Positions 32,261-48,337 of a stretch of DNA of 64,000 bases are shown piece after piece. Position 1 is the stretch's first letter. Every line of letters starts with the position of its first letter. The notes beneath the pieces were generated by a model. That model made no database searches. It saw only the letters and a program-made list of their open reading frames with translations, and was not told the origin of the DNA. The translations under genes and the position numbers were made by a program. Source of the DNA: Trypanosoma brucei (taxonomy: Eukaryota); the NCBI GenBank assembly GCA_000002445.1, contig CP000066.1:448001-512000 (forward strand). Direction: 5' to 3'.

Positions 32261-34048
32261 CTAAGAACTCACATCAAGATTAAAGAACGGATGGCAAAGT
32301 GCACTGGCTGCCGTCATACGTTGCCTCGGGTCTCGCTCGAAACAGCGCATAACAAAATCATTTAACACTGAAGGCCATGCCTCCGGATGCCGCAATGCTG
32401 GGGACAAAAAATTCTCCTCCATGGCCATAAACGTAGCGGCTGGATCCCACACTGCGTACTCAAGCCCATTAAGCATTCTCAAAAGGACACAACCTACACT
32501 CCACATATCGCAGGAGGCGGCGAAAGTTGCAACACGGTTGGCTTCATATCTGGGTTCAGCACTGGCAGATGCCCAATACACCTCAGGCGCCATTGTACTG
32601 AAGTCGCCAAGTTGGGAAATGGGCGATCCGAGACGCTGCGCGAGGCCAAGGTCAGTCAGCACAACACGCGGAAAGGAAAAATCCTCCACCAAAACCTGTT
32701 TAAGTGTTAGGGGTGATGAAAGAAGGCTCTCAGCGCCTGCATCACCAAATGGCCATGGTTTGGATAGGAGGATATTCTCCGCCTTCACATCAAGATGGCA
32801 CAAGTTGCACACATTGTTGAGAAAGTAAAGCGCATGACATATGCTCCACGCTACGTGCTGGACCTCTCGCACAGTAAACAGCGTCCGAGGCGTAGCGCCA
32901 GTACCTCCCGTGCCATCATGGGAAGGGAAGGGGCACCCCGTTGCGGATGAAACTTTATAAATCTCGCTGCGCTTATTAATACAGTCGCCTAGAGAAGTGG
33001 GATAGAGTTCTAGCGGGAAAAGCAACGCATCCCGCTTGATGCTGTACATTACGCTGCCAACGAGCTTTACTACAAAAAGTGAGCCCGTCAGAAAGGTACG
33101 CAGGACATGCAGACGCCCTTCTAACTCCGTTATGTTGTTCTTGATATGTGAAAGCTCGCTCTCATCGCCCTCCGTGCATTCCTCCGATACTCCTGCTGCT
33201 TGTCGTTTAAGCTGCTCCAACTCTCTTTCCACAGTCCGCACATCAGTTTCAAGTCGATGAGTTGCACTAGTTACCGTCTGAAGGGCACAACTTTCATCAA
33301 GAGTCCACTTTCCCTGAACGCGACTAATCTTAATGGCAACACGGCGGGCCTTAATGGATGCGCCCGTGGGAGTCCCATTCCATAGCACACAGTCGGAACC
33401 CTGATTACGACTTGTAGCAGTGCTATCAGCGCATACGCCATCCACTTCCACAACTGACTTCCGTTTGGCAGGGACGACAATCCCATAGTTTCCGCGACCT
33501 ATGTAACCTGTGAAGCTGCTGCCACACGTAGACGACAGTTGCCTCAGACTGAAACACGATTCAAGCTCTTGGTCACTTTTTAAAAATTCATACGGTGAAC
33601 TTTCCTCTTCGGGGAACATTTGCAACAATTGCGACGGAGTCGGTTCGATCTCTCGCTGGAGATCAAATTTACTGTCGTCGTCAGTTCTCGGACCGCTGCT
33701 TCCCCCCAAAGGAGCCTCGTCTCCTCCTTCATTTGTAACGGCTTCACCTCTTTTATATTCGTCACGGCCCCTCGCCATCGTATCAAATGGCAAAACGGCA
33801 CTACACGTACGGCTAAGGCCAAACTGTGCCATTGGTGGGGCACTCCACGTATGAATGAACTCCATGACATTTTTTGGACGGTTAATAACAATGTCGACGA
33901 GGAGGTTGTTAACAATATTCTGCGCACCGCTCTGATGCATCCAGCGGTCAATAGCCAAAGTGGGTTCTTTCTTATTTGCTTCATTGCTGGGATCGTTGCA
34001 GCCGTCCCCCGTAATTTTGTCCATCCCGGTAATTAAGTTCCCCCTCAT
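32261..34048 (-). CDS. Ser/Thr protein kinase with an N-terminal RIIa/DPY-30-like dimerisation-docking motif and non-canonical catalytic motifs (HLD, DLG)
   Basis: 595 aa, and the ATG is confirmed (atgaggggg...). The N-terminus reads GAQNIVNNLLVDIVINRPKNVMEFIHTW, which parallels the RIIa/DPY-30 consensus VPILLQGL...RP.NP.EFL. The kinase has a Gly-loop GRGNYGIVV, VAIK, a large insert, HLDVKAENILLS (normally HRD...), DLGLA (normally DFG) and MAPEVYW. Confidence 0.85.
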   Translation of the reverse strand: MRGNLITGMDKITGDGCNDPSNEANKKEPTLAIDRWMHQSGAQNIVNNLLVDIVINRPKNVMEFIHTWSAPPMAQFGLSRTCSAVLPFDTMARGRDEYKRGEAVTNEGGDEAPLGGSSGPRTDDDSKFDLQREIEPTPSQLLQMFPEEESSPYEFLKSDQELESCFSLRQLSSTCGSSFTGYIGRGNYGIVVPAKRKSVVEVDGVCADSTATSRNQGSDCVLWNGTPTGASIKARRVAIKISRVQGKWTLDESCALQTVTSATHRLETDVRTVERELEQLKRQAAGVSEECTEGDESELSHIKNNITELEGRLHVLRTFLTGSLFVVKLVGSVMYSIKRDALLFPLELYPTSLGDCINKRSEIYKVSSATGCPFPSHDGTGGTGATPRTLFTVREVQHVAWSICHALYFLNNVCNLCHLDVKAENILLSKPWPFGDAGAESLLSSPLTLKQVLVEDFSFPRVVLTDLGLAQRLGSPISQLGDFSTMAPEVYWASASAEPRYEANRVATFAASCDMWSVGCVLLRMLNGLEYAVWDPAATFMAMEENFLSPALRHPEAWPSVLNDFVMRCFERDPRQRMTAASALCHPFFNLDVSS

Positions 34049-35929: not shown

Positions 35930-38245
35930 TTATTTTTTACCCCCGTGCCCTTTTGTGGAACTGTCGCTGCCGGAGTGGTTATTGGCATTAACTGATGAAC
36001 CGCTACCACCAGGCGCACTGCTCCCAGACGAGGCGGAGGAATTTGAAGCTGTTGAGTGCGCACCGGCGTGCTGCGAAGATTGTCCACCGTTTCTTCCACT
36101 GGACGAGCGCTTCTTCAACATGCGCTCCGCCTCACGATCCGCCTTTTGTTTATTCCACGCTTCCTTTTTCTCTCGTAACATTTGCCGCACCCCTCGCCCC
36201 TCCAGCACGCGAGGTGTTGGTGGTGATGGAAAGATAACACTCCGACAGTTGCGGGTGCCACAACTGCATGCAAATGGCGGCATACGTTCGTCACATAACG
36301 TGGCATAATCCACGGTTAACTCCTCACCACTATTAATTGTCCGCTTAGAGACAAGCGTCAGCGTCCGGCCCTGCAAGAAATGCATATTGGGTTCACAAGA
36401 GTGACGAATTGCAACTGCCTGATGAAGGCGATCACCACGTAAAATCACACACCCCACCACTGGATCCTCTTCCCCAAGTTTATATACAGCCTGAGCAATA
36501 ACGGGAACAGTGTGGGCCGCATCACTGAAGAGCGCCTTGCCGGGCCGTACGGTTCGGCTCGCTTTACTCGAAAAATTTCCACGAGAATCGTGACTGATGA
36601 AGTACCATGGCCGCCTTGCCTTCTGCTCACGGACTGCGCGGTTCACTGCATTGTCCACAAAGCGGTCGTGATCCCATGATTTATCGCCCACCACCATCAA
36701 GTCCGCGAAGTCACCGCCATCCTTCTCGCTGTACCACATCCCACAGTTTGGGTTGATTTCCAAAAAGTATACATCACCTTTGGGGTCTATACGAAAGTCA
36801 ACACGGCCATATCCGACCCCGTTCATAATGTGTTGGAAAGCATTCCGGGCCATGTCAATAATCCGTGGGTAGGCCGGGTCATTATGAGGAAGAAAACTGC
36901 ATGCCTCATCGTTGCATTCCATGGACCACTTCTTGTCAAAATAGGCAAAGTCATCTTCATTTTGCAAAAAGTTAAACATTAAAGGCCTGAACACCTTGAC
37001 GCCATGCGGACTCCCGCTGTCGGCACATGCGAGAACGGTGCCCTCACGTCCTCGAATAAACTCCTCCACCAGAGCGTGATTGAACTCTTTCAGAAATGTT
37101 CCAACCTTCACTTTCAACTCGTCCAGAGTGTCACAACGGTTATCCTTGTTAATGCCAACAGAAGCGTAACCGGAAAGATGTTTCACGATGACAGGGAACC
37201 GCAGATGACGACATTTCTTCGCCAAACCTTCCGTTTTATCCAAAAGCACAAAGTTAGGTGTATTCACACCGGCCCCGGCAACAAGCACTTTCATATCAAT
37301 CTTGCTGGGTTCAAAACTGCGCGAGTCTGTGCCCGTAAATGCTGCGTTGTGCTCCTCCAGTGCCTCTAATACGTCGATACCAGCACGCTTCTCATCTTTA
37401 CCACCGTCACAAAGGTTAAAGAAAACGTCGAAGTTGTTTGAGGTTACCAATTCTCGCACCTGACGATAGGCATCATCTTTACGCACAGCAACTTCCGTGA
37501 AGGAGTACCTGTTCTTGTCCTTCCGCACCCTGTGAGCGGGGCTGCAGTGGTAATTGTCCATTTCCGCAGTGACAGAATTGGTCCCTTCGTAGCTGCTGTT
37601 GAGGACACATACGCGCAATTGCTTCTTTACGCTCGCCCTTCTCCTGCCTAGAGTTTGAGATACCACCATCCCAGTCGCCGATTTTGTGCAGTGGGAACCA
37701 TTAGCGGATGAAGAGCCCGTTGACATTGCTGTTGCTGTGTTCGTGGTCGATGCACCGGATCTATTCACCACTGACTTGGAAGAGGAAGCTTTTACTTTCT
37801 TCAGCCCAATCACATCTTCTTTTCCTTTTCTTGCTGACCTTCCCCGATTCGATCCCTGCCCTATTTCCACTGCTGTAGTCATCCCTGAGCTTTTACCTGA
37901 CGCACCACCGCCGTTACTCGTACCTGATGCACTCAACAGGGCTGCACTCTTCGTGCCGGGGTTAATGCCATTACCTCCAGGATGAGCGGATGTACCGACG
38001 GCGGCGGGAGGCACGGCGCCTCCAACTGTCAAACAACTTGAAGTACCACCACTTTTACTGCTCACAGAAGAGGCAGCACCACGGGATGGGAGAATAATAG
38101 TTGTGTTGGATGACTTCCATCGCAGGGTGTGAACAGTCACGCAACTCCACACAGCCACTGTTGGGGTTTTGGGTATTAATACATCTGCAAGGGGACATCG
38201 TAAGACTGAAGCCACACCAAAACGTCGAATTGCTATTCTGTACAT
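35930..38245 (-). CDS. Fusion protein: D-Ala-D-Ala-ligase-like ATP-grasp domain followed by a SET-domain methyltransferase with post-SET Cys cluster, and a Ser/Gly-rich C-tail
   Basis: 771 aa with a verified ATG. The ATP-grasp part reads FPVIVKHLSGYASVGINKDNRCDTLDELKVKV...LVEEFIRGREGTVLAC...GYGRVDFRIDPKGDVYFLEINPNCGM. The SET part reads GCVILRGDRLHQAVAIRHSCEPNMHF...INSGEELTVDYATLCDERMPPFACSCGTRNCRSVI. Confidence 0.85.
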   Translation of the reverse strand: MYRIAIRRFGVASVLRCPLADVLIPKTPTVAVWSCVTVHTLRWKSSNTTIILPSRGAASSVSSKSGGTSSCLTVGGAVPPAAVGTSAHPGGNGINPGTKSAALLSASGTSNGGGASGKSSGMTTAVEIGQGSNRGRSARKGKEDVIGLKKVKASSSKSVVNRSGASTTNTATAMSTGSSSANGSHCTKSATGMVVSQTLGRRRASVKKQLRVCVLNSSYEGTNSVTAEMDNYHCSPAHRVRKDKNRYSFTEVAVRKDDAYRQVRELVTSNNFDVFFNLCDGGKDEKRAGIDVLEALEEHNAAFTGTDSRSFEPSKIDMKVLVAGAGVNTPNFVLLDKTEGLAKKCRHLRFPVIVKHLSGYASVGINKDNRCDTLDELKVKVGTFLKEFNHALVEEFIRGREGTVLACADSGSPHGVKVFRPLMFNFLQNEDDFAYFDKKWSMECNDEACSFLPHNDPAYPRIIDMARNAFQHIMNGVGYGRVDFRIDPKGDVYFLEINPNCGMWYSEKDGGDFADLMVVGDKSWDHDRFVDNAVNRAVREQKARRPWYFISHDSRGNFSSKASRTVRPGKALFSDAAHTVPVIAQAVYKLGEEDPVVGCVILRGDRLHQAVAIRHSCEPNMHFLQGRTLTLVSKRTINSGEELTVDYATLCDERMPPFACSCGTRNCRSVIFPSPPTPRVLEGRGVRQMLREKKEAWNKQKADREAERMLKKRSSSGRNGGQSSQHAGAHSTASNSSASSGSSAPGGSGSSVNANNHSGSDSSTKGHGGKK

Positions 38246-39183: not shown

Positions 39184-40053
39184 TCACAAGTCACCGAAGA
39201 AACTCGCGTCCTCTAAAAGTTTTCCAACGCGCACGTGGCCCATGAGAGGCGGTCCATCAGGGTCTTCCAAAGAAGCTCGATCTCCGCGCATCCATGTGAA
39301 TTTGAGCACCCTTGAAAAGTTTCTCCCCTCCCAGTTCTTGTTATCGAAGTTTTGTTCAGCGATGTAAACAAGTGAGGGCTGTCGACGCTCCTTCTTCAGT
39401 TCGCGAAGTGCCGCCTCTCCACCAGCAGCAGATACGTCATCTTCCACCTTCACAACCACGGCAACGTGACCGCGTGGAAAGTATGCCTTATAGTCCGAGT
39501 CCCATACCACAACATCGCCCACGAGCGGCGTGTGCCGCTTGCGCCTCTTCGTTGTCGTGACTTCCACCTTATTTTCGAAGTTAATCCGCTCGTATAGACG
39601 GTGCATCCCGCTTGAACCAAAAAACTTGAGGTTCTCCCAGTACAAATCGTGTCTGCTTCCACCGAAATAGACGAAAATTCCTCGGGTGTGTAAAAGGTAG
39701 CGAGCAACAAACTCATCCGCGGTCCAACACAACCCAGTTGGTGCTCGCTTCCACTCGGACCCATACGGCATTTTCTTCATCACTTCATGTGGATAACCAA
39801 TTGTAGTGTAGGCGTATGTCTCTGACAGCCAGTGGCGGTGGCAGTTGCTCATAGAAGGGACGTCTGAACTATAACCTACAACAGAGTCCATGGGAGCGTT
39901 GCAATGCTCAAGTGGGTTGAAATCCATATGCATCCCATGTCTCTTTGATTTCTGCGTGGATCCCCCACCGAGGAGAACGTAGACGAATAGAAAAAGCAGG
40001 AGAGTAGCCGGCACAGCGAGCTGAAACTTCTGTTTTCGGTTTAGAGACACCAT
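39184..40053 (-). CDS. Stand-alone CHAP-domain amidase, related to the glutathionylspermidine/trypanothione amidase domain, with an N-terminal signal-anchor
   Basis: The track start is TTG, and the first ATG is at 40051-40053 (MVSLNRKQKFQLAVPATLLLFLFVYVLLGG, hydrophobic). The catalytic region reads GLCWTADEFVARYLLHTRG...GDVVVWDSDYKAYFPRGHVAVVVKVEDD...LVYIAEQNFDNKNWEG. It parallels trypanothione synthetase-amidase YQCVEFARRWLLERKG...[28 protein letters not shown]. Confidence 0.75.
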   Translation of the reverse strand: MVSLNRKQKFQLAVPATLLLFLFVYVLLGGGSTQKSKRHGMHMDFNPLEHCNAPMDSVVGYSSDVPSMSNCHRHWLSETYAYTTIGYPHEVMKKMPYGSEWKRAPTGLCWTADEFVARYLLHTRGIFVYFGGSRHDLYWENLKFFGSSGMHRLYERINFENKVEVTTTKRRKRHTPLVGDVVVWDSDYKAYFPRGHVAVVVKVEDDVSAAGGEAALRELKKERRQPSLVYIAEQNFDNKNWEGRNFSRVLKFTWMRGDRASLEDPDGPPLMGHVRVGKLLEDASFFGDL

Positions 40054-40403
40054 TTGTGGCGTGATTTGTTGATTCGCGTCCTTTACAAAATAATAATAAT
40101 AACAATACCAATGCCAATGCCAATAAGGTTTTATAGCCCTCCCGTGAAAGGATGGAAGAAAGATAGAAAGAAGAGCATTGACAGAAACGTGCCAACAGGA
40201 AAGAACCCGATCATCGGACACACAGAATGTACCGCTGAAGCGATATAGTAGGTAAAAAGTGCGAGACACAAATGGCAAAAAAAATTTTCAAAGTTCGTAT
40301 GATGGGAAAAGGTGTAAAACATGTGAAATCCTCCCCACATTCATCTGATTATTGCGCCGTACATCAGACCAGTAGACTGCCGCCGATTTTCTCCACGCAC
40401 CAA

Positions 40404-45733: not shown

Positions 45734-48337
45734 TTATGCTTCATCTTCTATCTCATCTTCACCTGTGCCAGACGCACGGGCAACATCATTCCCACTAAGT
45801 TCTTCGCTCCCAATAGAGGAAGATGATGAAGAAGCGTTCTTTCGACCTTTGGATACGCTAGAGCTTGACCGAGACGTCCTTTTACTGCTCGATTCTTTGG
45901 ACGATGCACCATCCGCTGAGTCCTTCGCCGCGTCGGCACCGGACGCCTCATCCACAGCCTCGCTCTTTACCGCATCAGAATCTAGCTCATCTACATCCTG
46001 ATCGTTAACATGTTCGTCCTCTACAACCTGTTGCACAGCCTCACCCTTTTCAGATGATGGCGATCTCTCCAGTTCGTCGCCGTACTCGAACTTATCCCCC
46101 TCCAGTTTAGCGGATGATTCGGATTTCTTCGATGATGAGCGGGACTGCTCCGACTCGGTATCTTTCTTTTCAGATGTCTGGGACTTGTCAAGCTCCTCAG
46201 TGTATTCATCCTTCTGTTCATCATCCTCAGGCTTCTTCGATGATGAGCGGGACCGCTCCGACTCGGTATCTTTCTGATCCTCAGCCTCGGTATCTTTCTT
46301 TTCAGATGTCTGGGACTTGTCAAGCTCCTCAGTGTATTCATCCTTCTGTTCATCATCCTCAGGCTTCTTCGATGATGAGCGGGACCGCTCCGACTCGGTA
46401 TCTTTCTGATCCTCAGCCTCGGTATCTTTCTTTTCAGATGTCTGGGACTTGTCAAGCTCCTCAGTGTATTCATCCTTCTGTTCATCATCCTCAGGCTTCT
46501 TCGATGATGAGCGGGACTGCTCCGACTCGGTATCTTTCTTTTCAGATGTCTGGGACTTGTCAAGCTCCTCAGTGTATTCATCCTTCTGTTCATCATCCTC
46601 AGGCTTCTTCGATGATGAGCGGGACCGCTCCGACTCGGTATCTTTCTGATCCTCAGCCTCGGTATCTTTCTTTTCAGATGTCTGGGACTTGTCAAGCTCC
46701 TCAGTGTATTCATCCTTCTGTTCATCATCCTCAGGCTTCTTCGATGATGAGCGGGACCGCTCCGACTCGGTATCTTTCTGATCCTCAGCCTCGGTATCTT
46801 TCTTTTCAGATGTCTGGGACTTGTCAAGCTCCTCAGTGTATTCATCCTTCTGTTCATCATCCTCAGGCTTCTTCGATGATGAGCGGGACCGCTCCGACTC
46901 GGTATCTTTCTGATCCTCAGTGTCAGGATCCTTCTTTCCGGACTCGGAGGCTTCAAATTCGTCACCATAATCATTCTTGGTTGTATCAGCAGTTGGTTCA
47001 TCATCCGTCTTGTCTGCATCATCCTTCGTCAGTTCCTCAGGCTTCTTCGATGATGAGCGGGACCGCTCCGACTCGGTATCTTTCTGATCCTCAGTGTCAG
47101 GATCCTTCTTTCCGGACTCGGAGGCTTCAAATTCGTCACCATAATCATTCTTGGTTGTATCAGCAGTCGGTTCATCATCCGTCTTCTCTCGTCCTTCCCT
47201 GCCGGATCTCTCAGACTTCCTTGACGATGGTCGAGAACGGTCAGATTGAGTGTCCTTCCCATCTTCAGCATCGGTGGTGTCCTGTTGCATCGCTTTTTGA
47301 CTGGCGCTTGCAGATGCAGAGGACGGGCGAGCAGCAGATGCAGGACGGCTATTGCCACCATCCTTCAAAATTTCCTTGCTCGTCGACTGCTCTGTCGAGG
47401 CTGGTTGCGGAGATGCTGTAGAAGGTCTGCTTTCCCTCTTAGCTTCGCTGGGTTGCGCCACACTTGATGTAGAACCCTTCCCAGTTGCAGAGTCTTCCGC
47501 GACTGATGATGAAATTGGGGCCTCGTCTTCGGTCACAGCACCGTGCTTACTGCTTTCAGTTAACCCTCCACCGGACTTCCGGCCGCCAACGGGAGAAGCG
47601 GCTCCTTTGCCCTTCTGTGGTGTGGCGGGTCGGGAAGAGTCCGAATTTAGAGTTTCTCTAATGGTCTTGAGTAATATATTCTTGGGAGGGGACGAAGTTT
47701 TGCCCTTTCCCTGACTGCTGCAGGCACCCGGTCGGCCACCTCGTTGGCCCACTGTATCAGGACGCTTTTGTTTGGGTGGCTTAGGAACTGTCGCCACGGC
47801 GCGTTTCTTGGATCCAGTAGCTCTACTCGACACAGTACGTTGACGCTTCTTCGCAACTTCTTTTCTACCCGATGTAGTCTCTTTCGGGCTGGTCAACTCC
47901 TCGGCCTCAACACGCCTCTGCGTAGCGAATCCCGTCCGGCATGCGAGTTCCTCCAACTCCCTCTGGCGCCGTTCCTCAAATCGCCGGCGAGCCACTTCAC
48001 GCCGATGTTGCTCCAACCGCTTCTGCCGCCTCATCTCTTCCCGGCGCTCGGCCGTTTCACGGATCAACATCTCCCTTCGGGCCCAGTAAGGTGCAAGGTA
48101 TGGATCTTCCAAATCGTTATACGGAGGAAGACTTTGGTCTTGTAGTGGCCCAAGTGTGAATTCTGTTTCTAGGAAGCGCTGAGCGGACTGTGGGCGTAGA
48201 TTACTGTTTACTGTAGATCTTGGTGTAACAACACACAAAGCATTGGTAGCAGCCGGACCATGTGACGCGTAGACGCCCACTCGAGCTGCCTCACCGCCGC
48301 GAGATGAACTCTCCAGTGGGGGGAGCGACTTCGACAT
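45734..48337 (-). CDS. Highly acidic Ser/Lys/Glu/Asp-rich tandem-repeat protein (867 aa) with an Arg-rich coiled-coil N-terminus
   Basis: Verified ATG (atgtcgaagtcgctcccc). The N-terminus reads RREMLIRETAERREEMRRQKRLEQHRREVARRRFEERRQRELEEL. It is followed by at least 8 near-identical 44- or 36-aa units SE(R/Q)SRSSSKKPEDDEQKDEYTEELDKSQTSEKKDTE(AEDQKDTE). Two longer 62-aa units precede them. Confidence 0.85.
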   Translation of the reverse strand: MSKSLPPLESSSRGGEAARVGVYASHGPAATNALCVVTPRSTVNSNLRPQSAQRFLETEFTLGPLQDQSLPPYNDLEDPYLAPYWARREMLIRETAERREEMRRQKRLEQHRREVARRRFEERRQRELEELACRTGFATQRRVEAEELTSPKETTSGRKEVAKKRQRTVSSRATGSKKRAVATVPKPPKQKRPDTVGQRGGRPGACSSQGKGKTSSPPKNILLKTIRETLNSDSSRPATPQKGKGAASPVGGRKSGGGLTESSKHGAVTEDEAPISSSVAEDSATGKGSTSSVAQPSEAKRESRPSTASPQPASTEQSTSKEILKDGGNSRPASAARPSSASASASQKAMQQDTTDAEDGKDTQSDRSRPSSRKSERSGREGREKTDDEPTADTTKNDYGDEFEASESGKKDPDTEDQKDTESERSRSSSKKPEELTKDDADKTDDEPTADTTKNDYGDEFEASESGKKDPDTEDQKDTESERSRSSSKKPEDDEQKDEYTEELDKSQTSEKKDTEAEDQKDTESERSRSSSKKPEDDEQKDEYTEELDKSQTSEKKDTEAEDQKDTESERSRSSSKKPEDDEQKDEYTEELDKSQTSEKKDTESEQSRSSSKKPEDDEQKDEYTEELDKSQTSEKKDTEAEDQKDTESERSRSSSKKPEDDEQKDEYTEELDKSQTSEKKDTEAEDQKDTESERSRSSSKKPEDDEQKDEYTEELDKSQTSEKKDTESEQSRSSSKKSESSAKLEGDKFEYGDELERSPSSEKGEAVQQVVEDEHVNDQDVDELDSDAVKSEAVDEASGADAAKDSADGASSKESSSKRTSRSSSSVSKGRKNASSSSSSIGSEELSGNDVARASGTGEDEIEDEA
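46100..47130. repeat. Coding tandem-repeat array: 8 copies of a 132-nt unit, or 108-nt where a 24-nt segment is missing, inside the acidic-repeat gene
   Basis: The marker 'gatgatgagcggga' recurs at about 46131, 46239, 46371, 46503, 46611, 46743, 46875 and 47049. The spacings are 108, 132, 132, 108, 132, 132 and 174 nt. The copies are nearly identical apart from C/T differences (gggaccgc versus gggactgc). Confidence 0.9.

What the first reader, a model, noticed from the sequence alone, without database searches (positions are those of the whole stretch)
32261..34048. Non-RD protein kinase (HLD/DLG) with an N-terminal RIIa/DPY-30 docking domain
The kinase has an intact Gly-loop, the VAIK lysine and the APE motif. 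But it reads HLDVKAEN where HRDLKPEN is expected, and DLG where DFG is expected. Its N-terminus carries an RIIa/DPY-30-like four-helix docking motif (NLLVDIVINRPKNVMEFIHTW). RIIa domains anchor proteins to AKAP-like amphipathic helices, classically in the flagellar axoneme. A kinase that brings its own RIIa domain would be tethered directly to such scaffolds. The HRD-to-HLD change removes the Arg that couples activity to activation-loop phosphorylation.
Basis: seen in the sequence. Interest (0 to 1): 0.5.

Follow-up and report, generated by a model that had tools for sequence, protein, structure and literature searches.

The report
Trypanosome kinase with built-in docking domain
An orphan protein kinase of Trypanosoma brucei (Tb927.3.1850) carries at its N-terminus the small dimerisation/docking module that anchors PKA regulatory subunits and radial-spoke enzymes to scaffolds; I found no earlier description of this fusion, and it predicts a kinase controlled by where it is docked rather than by activation-loop phosphorylation.

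Summary
The 595-aa ORF at 32261-34048 (-) is T. brucei Tb927.3.1850, an "orphan/unique" kinase with no fitness phenotype in bloodstream-form RNAi. All catalytic residues are intact. The catalytic loop reads HLD, and that Leu is invariant in all 16 family members. DLG is not special (D-[LFCYW]-G), and no Ser/Thr is conserved in the activation segment.

The RIIa call needs nuance. Pfam RIIa on the T. brucei sequence is sub-threshold (13.7-15.6 bits against 22.4). Three further lines support an RIIa/DPY-30-type D/D domain at residues 29-69:
- Homologues from uncultured kinetoplastids have the same architecture, and three pass the Pfam RIIa threshold at the aligned position.
- hhalign against canonical D/D domains gives 95.9% probability (score 39.3; best of 200 shuffles 15.1).

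The catalytic domain is a divergent STE20/MST-like one. Flagellar tethering is untested: the flagellar proteomics that detect the protein also detect a non-flagellar control. TbArl13, which docks on the axoneme through its D/D domain, is a close precedent. I rate this a new variant of a known kind, of moderate interest.

The parts
32261..34048 (-). Complete CDS of Tb927.3.1850 (595 aa plus stop codon at 32261-32263)
   Evidence: ORF list. 100% identical to T. equiperdum SCU72130.1; T. brucei TREU927 XP_843779.1 / Q57ZC6 is in the same >=90%-identity cluster. The Jones 2014 RNAi primers for Tb927.3.1850 match at 33786-33805(-) and 33384-33402(+).
33842..33964 (-). RIIa/DPY-30-type dimerisation/docking (D/D) domain, residues 29-69: N-terminal helix 29-40, helix I 42-56, RPKN turn 57-60, helix II 61-68
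33656..33841 (-). Poorly conserved, low-confidence linker, residues 70-131 (22 of 62 residues are G/S/P/T; 11 acidic, 7 basic). It contains phospho-Ser117 (33698-33700)
   Evidence: AF2 pLDDT below 50 for residues 70-133. Variable length and sequence in the alignments. Composition by script. pSer117 reported for Tb927.3.1850 in the bloodstream-form phosphoproteome (PMC2716717).
33611..33655 (-). Family-specific pre-kinase motif, residues 132-146 (REIEPTPSQLLQMFP; family consensus RPT..EL..FP.P)
   Evidence: R132, P136, T137 and L141 are invariant in Trypanosoma. The motif is shared by distant members. It aligns with the N-terminal extension of MST1, 'PPRRQLKKL'.
32282..33526 (-). Protein kinase catalytic domain, residues ~175-589, divergent STE20/MST-like
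   Evidence: Pfam Pkinase 70.3 bits against a cut-off of 31.7; only the C-lobe aligns because of insertions. The minimal family member P0024 matches Pkinase positions 4-263 at 109 bits. The family profile is closest to MST1/2, PAK, MAP4K3, SLK and TNIK.
33482..33499 (-). Glycine-rich loop GRGNYG (184-189)
   Evidence: G186, Y188 and G189 are invariant in 16 family members.
33329..33340 (-). VAIK with the beta3 lysine K240
   Evidence: K240 is invariant.
33293..33307 (-). WTLDE, start of helix C with the presumed K240-pairing Glu, E252
   Evidence: W248 and E252 are invariant in all 16 sequences. A helix starts at residue 248 in the AF2 model. The assignment of E252 as the helix-C Glu is inferred.
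33080..33292 (-). Trypanosoma-specific helical hairpin inserted after helix C (residues 253-323)
   Evidence: AF2 helices 248-289 and 293-323 with pLDDT 84-94. Weak coiled-coil-type Pfam hits. Absent or much shorter in distant family members.
32774..32797 (-). Catalytic loop HLDVKAEN (418-425): non-RD, Leu in place of the HRD arginine
   Evidence: H418, L419, D420, K422 and N425 are invariant in 16/16 family members.
32645..32653 (-). DLG (466-468), the Mg-binding Asp motif
   Evidence: D466 and G468 are invariant. The middle residue is L/F/C/W/Y across the family, and T. theileri has DFG.
32582..32614 (-). Activation-segment end QLGDFSTMAPE (479-489). The family signature is QLGDF..M.PE, with invariant D482 where STE20 kinases have the Thr of GTPxWMAPE
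   Evidence: Q479, L480, G481, D482, M486, P488 and E489 are invariant. Alignment to MST1. No position between DxG and APE has Ser/Thr in more than 8 of 16 sequences.

Best explanation
Tb927.3.1850 encodes a catalytically competent Ser/Thr kinase of divergent STE20/MST-like type. An RIIa/DPY-30-type dimerisation/docking domain (res 29-69) is fused directly to its N-terminus through a flexible, phosphorylated linker of about 60 residues. Shown here: the domain identities, the conservation of all catalytic residues, the invariant HLD, the lack of a conserved activation-loop phospho-acceptor, and the existence of the same architecture in other kinetoplastids. Inferred: two D/D protomers (a homodimer, or a heterodimer with another D/D protein) form an X-type four-helix bundle whose groove docks on an amphipathic helix of a scaffold. 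This places a kinase that needs no activation-loop phosphorylation next to its substrates, so control is by localisation and dimerisation. It puts on one polypeptide what PKA splits between the R subunit (D/D) and the C subunit (kinase). The scaffold is unknown. The axoneme or flagellar cytoskeleton is the leading guess, by analogy with TbArl13 and the radial-spoke enzymes, but this is not established.
Against: The T. brucei sequence itself is below the Pfam RIIa cut-off. There is no localisation datum. In the flagellar TMT and APEX2 data sets that contain the protein, the non-flagellar control Tb927.3.1840 shows the same pattern, while flagellar PKA-R is about 5-fold higher. No PDB chain matches this protein, so it is not among the proteins modelled in the T. 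brucei 96-nm axonemal repeat 9e5c. There is no loss of fitness in bloodstream-form RNAi. No orthologue is reported in L. major or Herpetomonas, which argues against a core axonemal role. Dimerisation, helix binding and kinase activity are all untested.
Confidence: 0.6

Rival explanations
1. The D/D domain serves mainly as a dimerisation device, the way the SARAH domain dimerises MST1/2. It regulates the kinase through dimer formation and does not anchor it to any scaffold.
For: The catalytic domain is closest to MST1/2, which I recall are dimeric through a C-terminal SARAH domain. D/D domains are obligate dimerisers, and the TbArl13 D/D mediates self-association. There is no localisation evidence for this kinase.
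Against: In every characterised D/D protein the dimer creates a groove that binds a partner helix (PMC8339350; PMC11779644). A non-RD kinase without a conserved T-loop phospho-acceptor has less obvious use for dimer-driven trans-autophosphorylation.
Confidence: 0.2
2. The D/D domain docks the kinase to a non-flagellar scaffold, for example a cytoplasmic, cortical-cytoskeleton or nuclear complex (DPY-30-type modules bind Ash2L/Bre2 in COMPASS).
Against: The best structural matches are axonemal or PKA-type D/D domains: EFCAB10, FAP385, RI-beta, NME5, AK8, RSP7/11. The only functionally tested kinetoplastid-specific D/D fusion, TbArl13, is axonemal.
Confidence: 0.25
3. The N-terminal helices are not a D/D domain. 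They are a lineage-specific helical extension of the kinase, and the resemblance to RIIa is due to chance or to amino-acid composition.
For: Pfam RIIa on the T. brucei sequence is below threshold at 13.7-15.6 bits. Individual Foldseek E-values are all above 1. Short helical hairpins are easy to match.
Confidence: 0.05
4. The protein is a pseudokinase or scaffold whose kinase fold no longer catalyses phosphotransfer.
For: It has unusual features: HLD, Asp in place of the conserved Thr of GT(P)xWMAPE, large insertions in the N-lobe, only C-lobe coverage by Pfam, low AF2 confidence for the C-lobe, and loss of the first Gly-loop glycine in distant members.
Against: K240, E252, D420, K422, N425, D466, E489, D514 and R577 are all invariant over a deep divergence. 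This is the pattern expected under selection for catalysis. Parsons et al. list the gene among the 'Unique' ePKs in their ePK table.
Confidence: 0.07

Closest known systems
D/D domains of PKA regulatory subunits (RI-alpha/beta, RII-alpha; Pfam RIIa PF02197)
   Same: A ~40-residue helix-turn-helix with a conserved Pro in the turn. The model superposes on RI-alpha/beta and RII-alpha D/D protomers, and the profiles align over 42 columns. Like RI, it has an extra N-terminal helix. Like RII, the second loop position is hydrophobic (RPxDV) and a Gly starts helix I (criteria from PMC8339350).
   Different: The domain is attached to a kinase catalytic domain, not to cNMP-binding domains; there is no cNMP_binding hit. 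The 'YF' of helix II is W-S/W-F. The sequence is too divergent for the Pfam cut-off in Trypanosoma. In PKA the D/D and the catalytic activity are on separate polypeptides.
TbArl13 (T. brucei Arl13b orthologue with an N-terminal D/D domain; PMC6140319)
   Same: It comes from the same organism and follows the same logic: a kinetoplastid-specific N-terminal D/D module bolted onto a signalling enzyme. For TbArl13 the D/D domain mediates self-association and axoneme docking.
   Different: The effector is a GTPase/GEF, not a protein kinase. The TbArl13 D/D was recognised by CDD, SUPERFAMILY and InterPro. I could not obtain its sequence to compare the two directly, and whether they share docking sites is unknown.
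Axonemal enzymes tethered by RIIa/DPY-30 domains (AK8, AK7, NME5/RSP23, FAP385, EFCAB10)
   Different: Those enzymes are nucleotide kinases that regenerate ATP or GTP, not protein kinases. No eukaryotic protein kinase appears in the D/D superfamily inventory (PMC8339350).
STE20-group kinases, especially MST1/2 (STK4/STK3)
   Same: These have the highest profile similarity of all solved kinases, at about 100 bits. The similarity includes the pre-kinase segment (RPT..EL.. against PPRRQLKKL), VAIK-x-V and MAPEV.
   Different: STE20 kinases are RD kinases (HRDIKxxN) with GTPxWMAPE and, as I recall, a T-loop phospho-site (MST1 T183). This family has HLD and GDF..MAPE, and its activation segment is 4 residues shorter, lacking the stretch 'rntv' that HMMER treats as an insertion in MST1. 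MST1/2 dimerise through a C-terminal SARAH domain (from memory), whereas here the D/D is N-terminal.
Other non-RD kinases (e.g. CLK3, HTD)
   Same: The HRD arginine is absent. CLK3 was the top single-sequence PDB hit, aligned across its HTDLKPEN loop.
   Different: There is no specific relationship: with the family profile the STE20 kinases outrank CLKs.

Membership tests
RIIa/DPY-30 D/D-domain superfamily | The sequence itself reaches the curated Pfam threshold for RIIa (PF02197) or Dpy-30 (PF05186) | tested here: not met
   T. brucei scores 13.7 bits (full length) and 15.6 bits (isolated N-terminus) against a cut-off of 22.4. RIIa is nevertheless the top family for 6 of 8 Trypanosoma orthologues, best E 0.0018.
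RIIa/DPY-30 D/D-domain superfamily | Demonstrable homology to the family by profile-profile comparison or through intermediate sequences | tested here: met
   hhalign 95.9% (family) and 94.3% (Trypanosoma only), with clean shuffle and reversal controls. The homologues P0027/P0162/P0163 pass the Pfam RIIa cut-off at 23.9-24.2 bits at the aligned position.
RIIa/DPY-30 D/D-domain superfamily | Helix-turn-helix protomer fold with a Pro in the turn, superposable on solved D/D domains | tested here: met
RIIa/DPY-30 D/D-domain superfamily | Forms an antiparallel X-type four-helix-bundle dimer | not testable with these tools
   Only monomer prediction was available. This needs SEC-MALS/AUC, a crystal or NMR structure, or a multimer prediction.
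RIIa/DPY-30 D/D-domain superfamily | The dimer groove binds an amphipathic helix of an AKAP-like partner | not testable with these tools
   No partner is known. This needs pull-down, BioID or peptide-array experiments.
Catalytically active eukaryotic protein kinase (Pkinase PF00069) | Pfam Pkinase above threshold, plus the Gly-loop, beta3 Lys, helix-C Glu, catalytic Asp/Lys/Asn, DxG Asp, APE Glu, helix-F Asp and subdomain XI Arg | tested here: met
   70.3 bits against 31.7. G184/G186/G189, K240, E252, D420, K422, N425, D466, E489, D514 and R577 are present and conserved. Enzymatic activity itself was not tested.
RD kinases | Arg immediately before the catalytic Asp (HRD) | tested here: not met
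   H-L-D, with Leu in 16 of 16 family members. It is therefore a non-RD kinase.
STE20 group of protein kinases | Closest profile similarity lies with STE20 members | tested here: met
   MST1/2, PAK1-6, MAP4K3, SLK, TNIK and STK10 fill the top of the PDB profile search. In one search most of the top non-family hits were also STE20-type (MAP4K, STK4, PAK, myosin-III kinase domains).
STE20 group of protein kinases | Group signature motifs HRDIKxxN and GTPxWMAPE (recalled from the kinase literature) | tested here: not met
   The motifs here are HLDVKxxN and QLGDFxxMAPE. Published classifications were 'Unique', 'Orphan' and 'CMGC'. I therefore call it STE20-like, not a member.
PKA regulatory subunit | D/D domain followed by an inhibitor site and two cNMP-binding domains | tested here: not met
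   There is no cNMP_binding hit; the rest of the protein is a kinase domain.

The most novel reading that the evidence does not exclude
Kinetoplastids possess a family of 'self-anchoring' protein kinases. This would be the first case of a eukaryotic protein-kinase catalytic domain fused directly to an RIIa-type D/D domain. The kinase would dock as a dimer on AKAP-like amphipathic helices of the flagellar axoneme, possibly at the same sites used by TbArl13. That would supply the scaffold-anchored kinase activity that kinetoplastid PKA, an R-C heterodimer rather than R2C2, cannot provide through its own R subunit.
Probability: 0.3. Interest if true: 0.7.

Novelty: new variant of a known kind. 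Interest (0 to 1): 0.5.

Why it matters
D/D domains are the universal plug that positions PKA and many axonemal enzymes on scaffolds. In every described case of protein-kinase anchoring, the plug sits on a separate regulatory subunit. A kinase that carries the plug itself, has lost the HRD arginine and has no conserved activation-loop phospho-site would be a minimal localisation-controlled kinase.

This gives a concrete, testable handle on an orphan kinase of a major parasite. The test is to tag it, delete the D/D domain and identify the helix it binds. It also extends the TbArl13 observation that kinetoplastids repeatedly bolt D/D modules onto signalling enzymes. The authors of that study proposed this docking machinery as a parasite-specific drug target.

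The limits are real. The gene shows no fitness phenotype in cultured bloodstream forms, and it is absent from Leishmania. Domain databases I could not query (CDD, SUPERFAMILY, InterPro) may already flag the domain.

Tried and rejected
1. Direct Pfam scan for RIIa/Dpy-30 on the T. brucei protein was sub-threshold. I did not treat this as a refutation, because the model is only 38 positions long, and I used profiles and structure instead.

2. The first full-length AF2 model, from 9 sequences, had mean pLDDT 51. I used it only for secondary structure, not for fold search.

3. I suspected a Wee1/Myt1 relationship because I recalled HLD/HMD catalytic loops there. I rejected this: the family profile ranks STE20 kinases first and no Myt1/Wee1 chain appears in the top 60.

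4. Flagellar proteomics looked like localisation evidence. Tb927.3.1850 is present in demembranated flagella (TMT) and in APEX2 labelling by DRC1, FAP45 and FAP52, with 0 counts in the no-APEX control. I rejected it after calibration: the non-flagellar enzyme Tb927.3.1840 behaves identically.

5. The TrypTag and axoneme-asymmetry supplements hold no entry for the gene in the stored text.

6. I thought PDB 9d5n, with its 'RIIa domain-containing protein' chain, might be from a trypanosome. It is Trichomonas.

7. Word-indexed homology searches with the family alignment and with P0027 returned no named non-Trypanosoma relatives. The organisms of the distant members remain unnamed, apart from L001, which its ribosomal protein S8e places as a kinetoplastid.

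8. The top PDB hit of the broadened N-terminal profile, a de novo designed repeat protein (9u78), was dismissed as a repeat-summation artefact.

9. Literature searches for RIIa as an accessory domain of protein kinases found nothing relevant. Parsons et al.'s accessory-domain table has no RIIa or Dpy-30 entry.
Full report
OBSERVATION. The window contains a 595-codon ORF at exactly 32261..34048 on the minus strand. It lies in a run of same-strand, intronless genes, which is typical of a kinetoplastid polycistron.

GENE IDENTITY. The protein is 100% identical to T. equiperdum SCU72130.1. It shares a >=90%-identity cluster with T. brucei TREU927 XP_843779.1 / UniProt Q57ZC6, which lies on a 1,653,225-bp contig. 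It is Tb927.3.1850 (old name Tb03.30P12.590). The gene-specific parts of the RNAi primers published for that gene match the window at 33786-33805(-) and 33384-33402(+). [quoted passage not shown]

What is published about this gene:
- It is classed 'Unique', with T. cruzi orthologues but none in L. major (Parsons 2005).
- It is classed 'Orphan', with no loss of fitness in the bloodstream-form kinome RNAi screen (Jones 2014).
- Phospho-Ser117 was found in the bloodstream-form phosphoproteome, where the gene is listed as CMGC (Nett 2009). Residue 117 is a Ser in this sequence.
- No orthologue was found in Herpetomonas.
- The accessory-domain table of the TriTryp kinome paper lists no RIIa or Dpy-30 domain.

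KINASE DOMAIN. Pfam Pkinase scores 70.3 bits against a cut-off of 31.7, but it aligns only the C-lobe, because the N-lobe carries two insertions. One is a stretch of ~38 residues between the Gly-loop and VAIK. The other is a ~70-residue helical hairpin after helix C (AF2 helices 248-289 and 293-323, pLDDT 84-94), which is specific to Trypanosoma. All residues needed for catalysis are present and invariant in nine Trypanosoma orthologues and in a 16-member family alignment: G184/G186/G189, K240, E252, H418, D420, K422, N425, D466, G468, P488, E489, D514 and R577. A pseudokinase is therefore unlikely.

The residue before the catalytic Asp is Leu in 16 of 16 sequences, so the non-RD state is a fixed family character. 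By contrast, the middle residue of DxG is L, F, C, W or Y, and T. theileri has DFG. Between DxG and APE no column has Ser/Thr in more than 8 of 16 sequences. The segment ends in an invariant QLGDF..M.PE, in which Asp482 takes the place of the Thr of the STE20 signature GTPxWMAPE. Loss of the HRD arginine together with the lack of a conserved phospho-acceptor fits the established rule that non-RD kinases are generally not gated by activation-loop phosphorylation (established knowledge, applied here by inference).

WHAT KIND OF KINASE. As a single sequence the domain is very divergent: the best PDB hit is CLK3 at 45.7 bits. With the family profile, the closest solved kinases are all STE20-group members: MST1/2 at about 100 bits, then PAK1-6, MAP4K3, SLK, TNIK and STK10. 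In one search most of the top non-family hits were also STE20-type. Even the conserved pre-kinase motif (RPT..EL..FP.P, residues 132-146) aligns with the N-terminal extension of MST1. Because the STE20 signature motifs are not kept, I call it STE20/MST-like rather than a member of that group.

THE FAMILY BEYOND TRYPANOSOMA. An exhaustive profile search of 1.84 billion representative proteins found a distinct tier of hits (P0016-P0030, E 1e-82 to 1e-25), well above the generic kinase background near 1e-12. Their sequences share these features:
- the pre-kinase motif;
- W.LDE at the start of helix C;
- an invariant HLDxKxxN;
- QLGDF..M.PE in the activation segment;
- in 8 of the 11 that I aligned, an N-terminal block [WY]L...(G)V...L..L......RP.D[VL]..[FY]...W that aligns in register with the Trypanosoma block.

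All of these come from unnamed environmental or SRA assemblies. One of them, P0162, sits on the contig L001. That contig has densely packed same-strand genes. Its ribosomal protein S8e scores 309-315 bits against five ribosome chains that I recall as Leishmania, T. brucei and T. cruzi, against 217 bits or less for all other eukaryotes. L001 therefore comes from an uncultured kinetoplastid. The fusion is thus older than the genus Trypanosoma and was apparently lost in the Leishmania/Herpetomonas lineage.

IS THE N-TERMINUS AN RIIa/DPY-30 DOMAIN? Four further lines of evidence are positive.
1. Consistency. RIIa is the top Pfam family for 6 of 8 Trypanosoma N-termini, best E 0.0018. Profile searches of PDB sequences return PKA RI-alpha/beta D/D domains, the radial-spoke protein FAP385, a Trichomonas axonemal 'RIIa domain-containing protein', ropporin-1-like and EFCAB10.
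2. Transitivity. P0027, P0162 and P0163 pass the Pfam RIIa threshold as full-length proteins (23.9-24.2 bits) alongside Pkinase. The isolated N-terminus of P0027 scores 28.9 bits.
3. Profile-profile comparison. hhalign of the 13-sequence family N-terminal alignment against seven canonical D/D domains gives 95.9% probability, P 6.4e-9 and score 39.3 over 42 columns. The Trypanosoma-only alignment gives 94.3%. The best of 200 column shuffles scores 15.1 for the family alignment and 18.4 for the Trypanosoma-only one. The reversed alignments score 8.8 and 8.3.

By the criteria of Dahlin et al. 2021 the domain is intermediate between the two subtypes. [quoted passage not shown]

FUNCTION. Nothing here shows directly where the protein is or what it binds. 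Its peptides are present in purified demembranated procyclic flagella. They are also present in APEX2 labelling by three axonemal baits: 9-21 spectral counts against 0 in the no-APEX control. However, the non-flagellar enzyme Tb927.3.1840 shows the same pattern, while flagellar PKA-R gives 64-87 counts. These data prove expression, not localisation. No PDB chain matches the protein, so it is not among the proteins modelled in the T. brucei 96-nm repeat (entry 9e5c).

The mechanism I consider most likely rests on analogy. D/D-bearing enzymes such as AK8, AK7 and NME5 dimerise with a neighbouring D/D protein and dock on amphipathic helices of RSPH3 or CFAP91. In T. brucei itself, the kinetoplastid-specific D/D domain of TbArl13 mediates self-association and axoneme docking. 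T. brucei PKA is an R-C heterodimer, not an R2C2 tetramer. From memory, its R subunit lacks a D/D domain. A kinase that carries its own D/D domain would fill that gap.

I therefore propose a D/D-mediated dimer docked on an as yet unknown amphipathic helix. This would position a kinase that needs no activation-loop phosphorylation. The disordered linker, phosphorylated at Ser117, could act as a tether. Rival readings are listed with their probabilities: dimerisation only, a non-flagellar scaffold, chance similarity, and pseudokinase.

NOVELTY. The gene and its kinase domain are known. I found no report of the D/D domain, of the family outside Trypanosoma, or of any eukaryotic protein-kinase catalytic domain fused to a D/D domain. 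I could not query InterPro, CDD or SUPERFAMILY, which may already flag it. I rate it a new variant of a known kind, of moderate interest.

Noticed in passing
window 33080-33292 (-), residues 253-323 of the kinase: A ~70-residue antiparallel helical hairpin is inserted right after helix C. It is the most confidently predicted part of the full-length AF2 model (pLDDT 84-94) and is specific to Trypanosoma; distant family members lack it. It could be a second interaction surface, or even an intramolecular docking site for the D/D domain.
   Followed up: partly
window 35930-38245 (-): The next gene encodes a 771-aa protein that combines a D-Ala-D-Ala-ligase-type ATP-grasp domain (57 bits) with a C-terminal SET domain (33 bits). 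This is an unusual pairing.
   Followed up: no
window 39184-40278 (-): A 364-aa ORF has a CHAP (cysteine/histidine-dependent amidohydrolase/peptidase) domain just above the Pfam threshold, 28.8 bits against 26.
   Followed up: no
window 46125-47189, inside the 867-aa ORF 45734-48337 (-): Near-perfect (99-100% identical) coding tandem repeats with 132- and 108-bp units. They explain the strong AT-skew anomaly (-0.32) at 46-48 kb and the long overlapping ORFs on both strands.
   Followed up: partly
outside the window: PDB chains 7zhy_B, 9vp7_B, 8fuy_A and 8u2w_A: The N-terminus of Leishmania donovani glucose-6-phosphate dehydrogenase matches the D/D model structurally. Separately, two different deposited enzymes, a G6PDH and an acetyl-CoA synthetase, contain the identical D/D-like segment DTILDNLREQVLDKKPDDVLKFIS. 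D/D-like modules may sit on metabolic enzymes in some protists, or that segment may be an engineered tag.
   Followed up: no
L001:5334-5987 and L001:8343-8996: In the uncultured-kinetoplastid contig that carries the RIIa-kinase homologue, two copies of ribosomal protein S8e flank a transketolase gene. A PDEase_I phosphodiesterase and a myosin lie downstream on the same strand.
   Followed up: no
alignment A3, Gly-loop columns (T. brucei residues 184-189; window 33482-33499): The distant subgroup of the family (P0023, P0024, P0025, P0027, P0028) has lost the first glycine of GxGxxG and reads xxGHYG, while the Trypanosoma-like subgroup keeps GxGNYG.
   Followed up: partly
window 33983-34048 (-), first ~22 codons of the ORF: Most orthologues start about 20-50 residues later than the T. 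brucei ORF in the alignment (T. conorhini is annotated with an even longer N-terminus), and a second in-frame Met is at codon 9. The true start codon is therefore uncertain, but either choice keeps the whole D/D domain.
   Followed up: no
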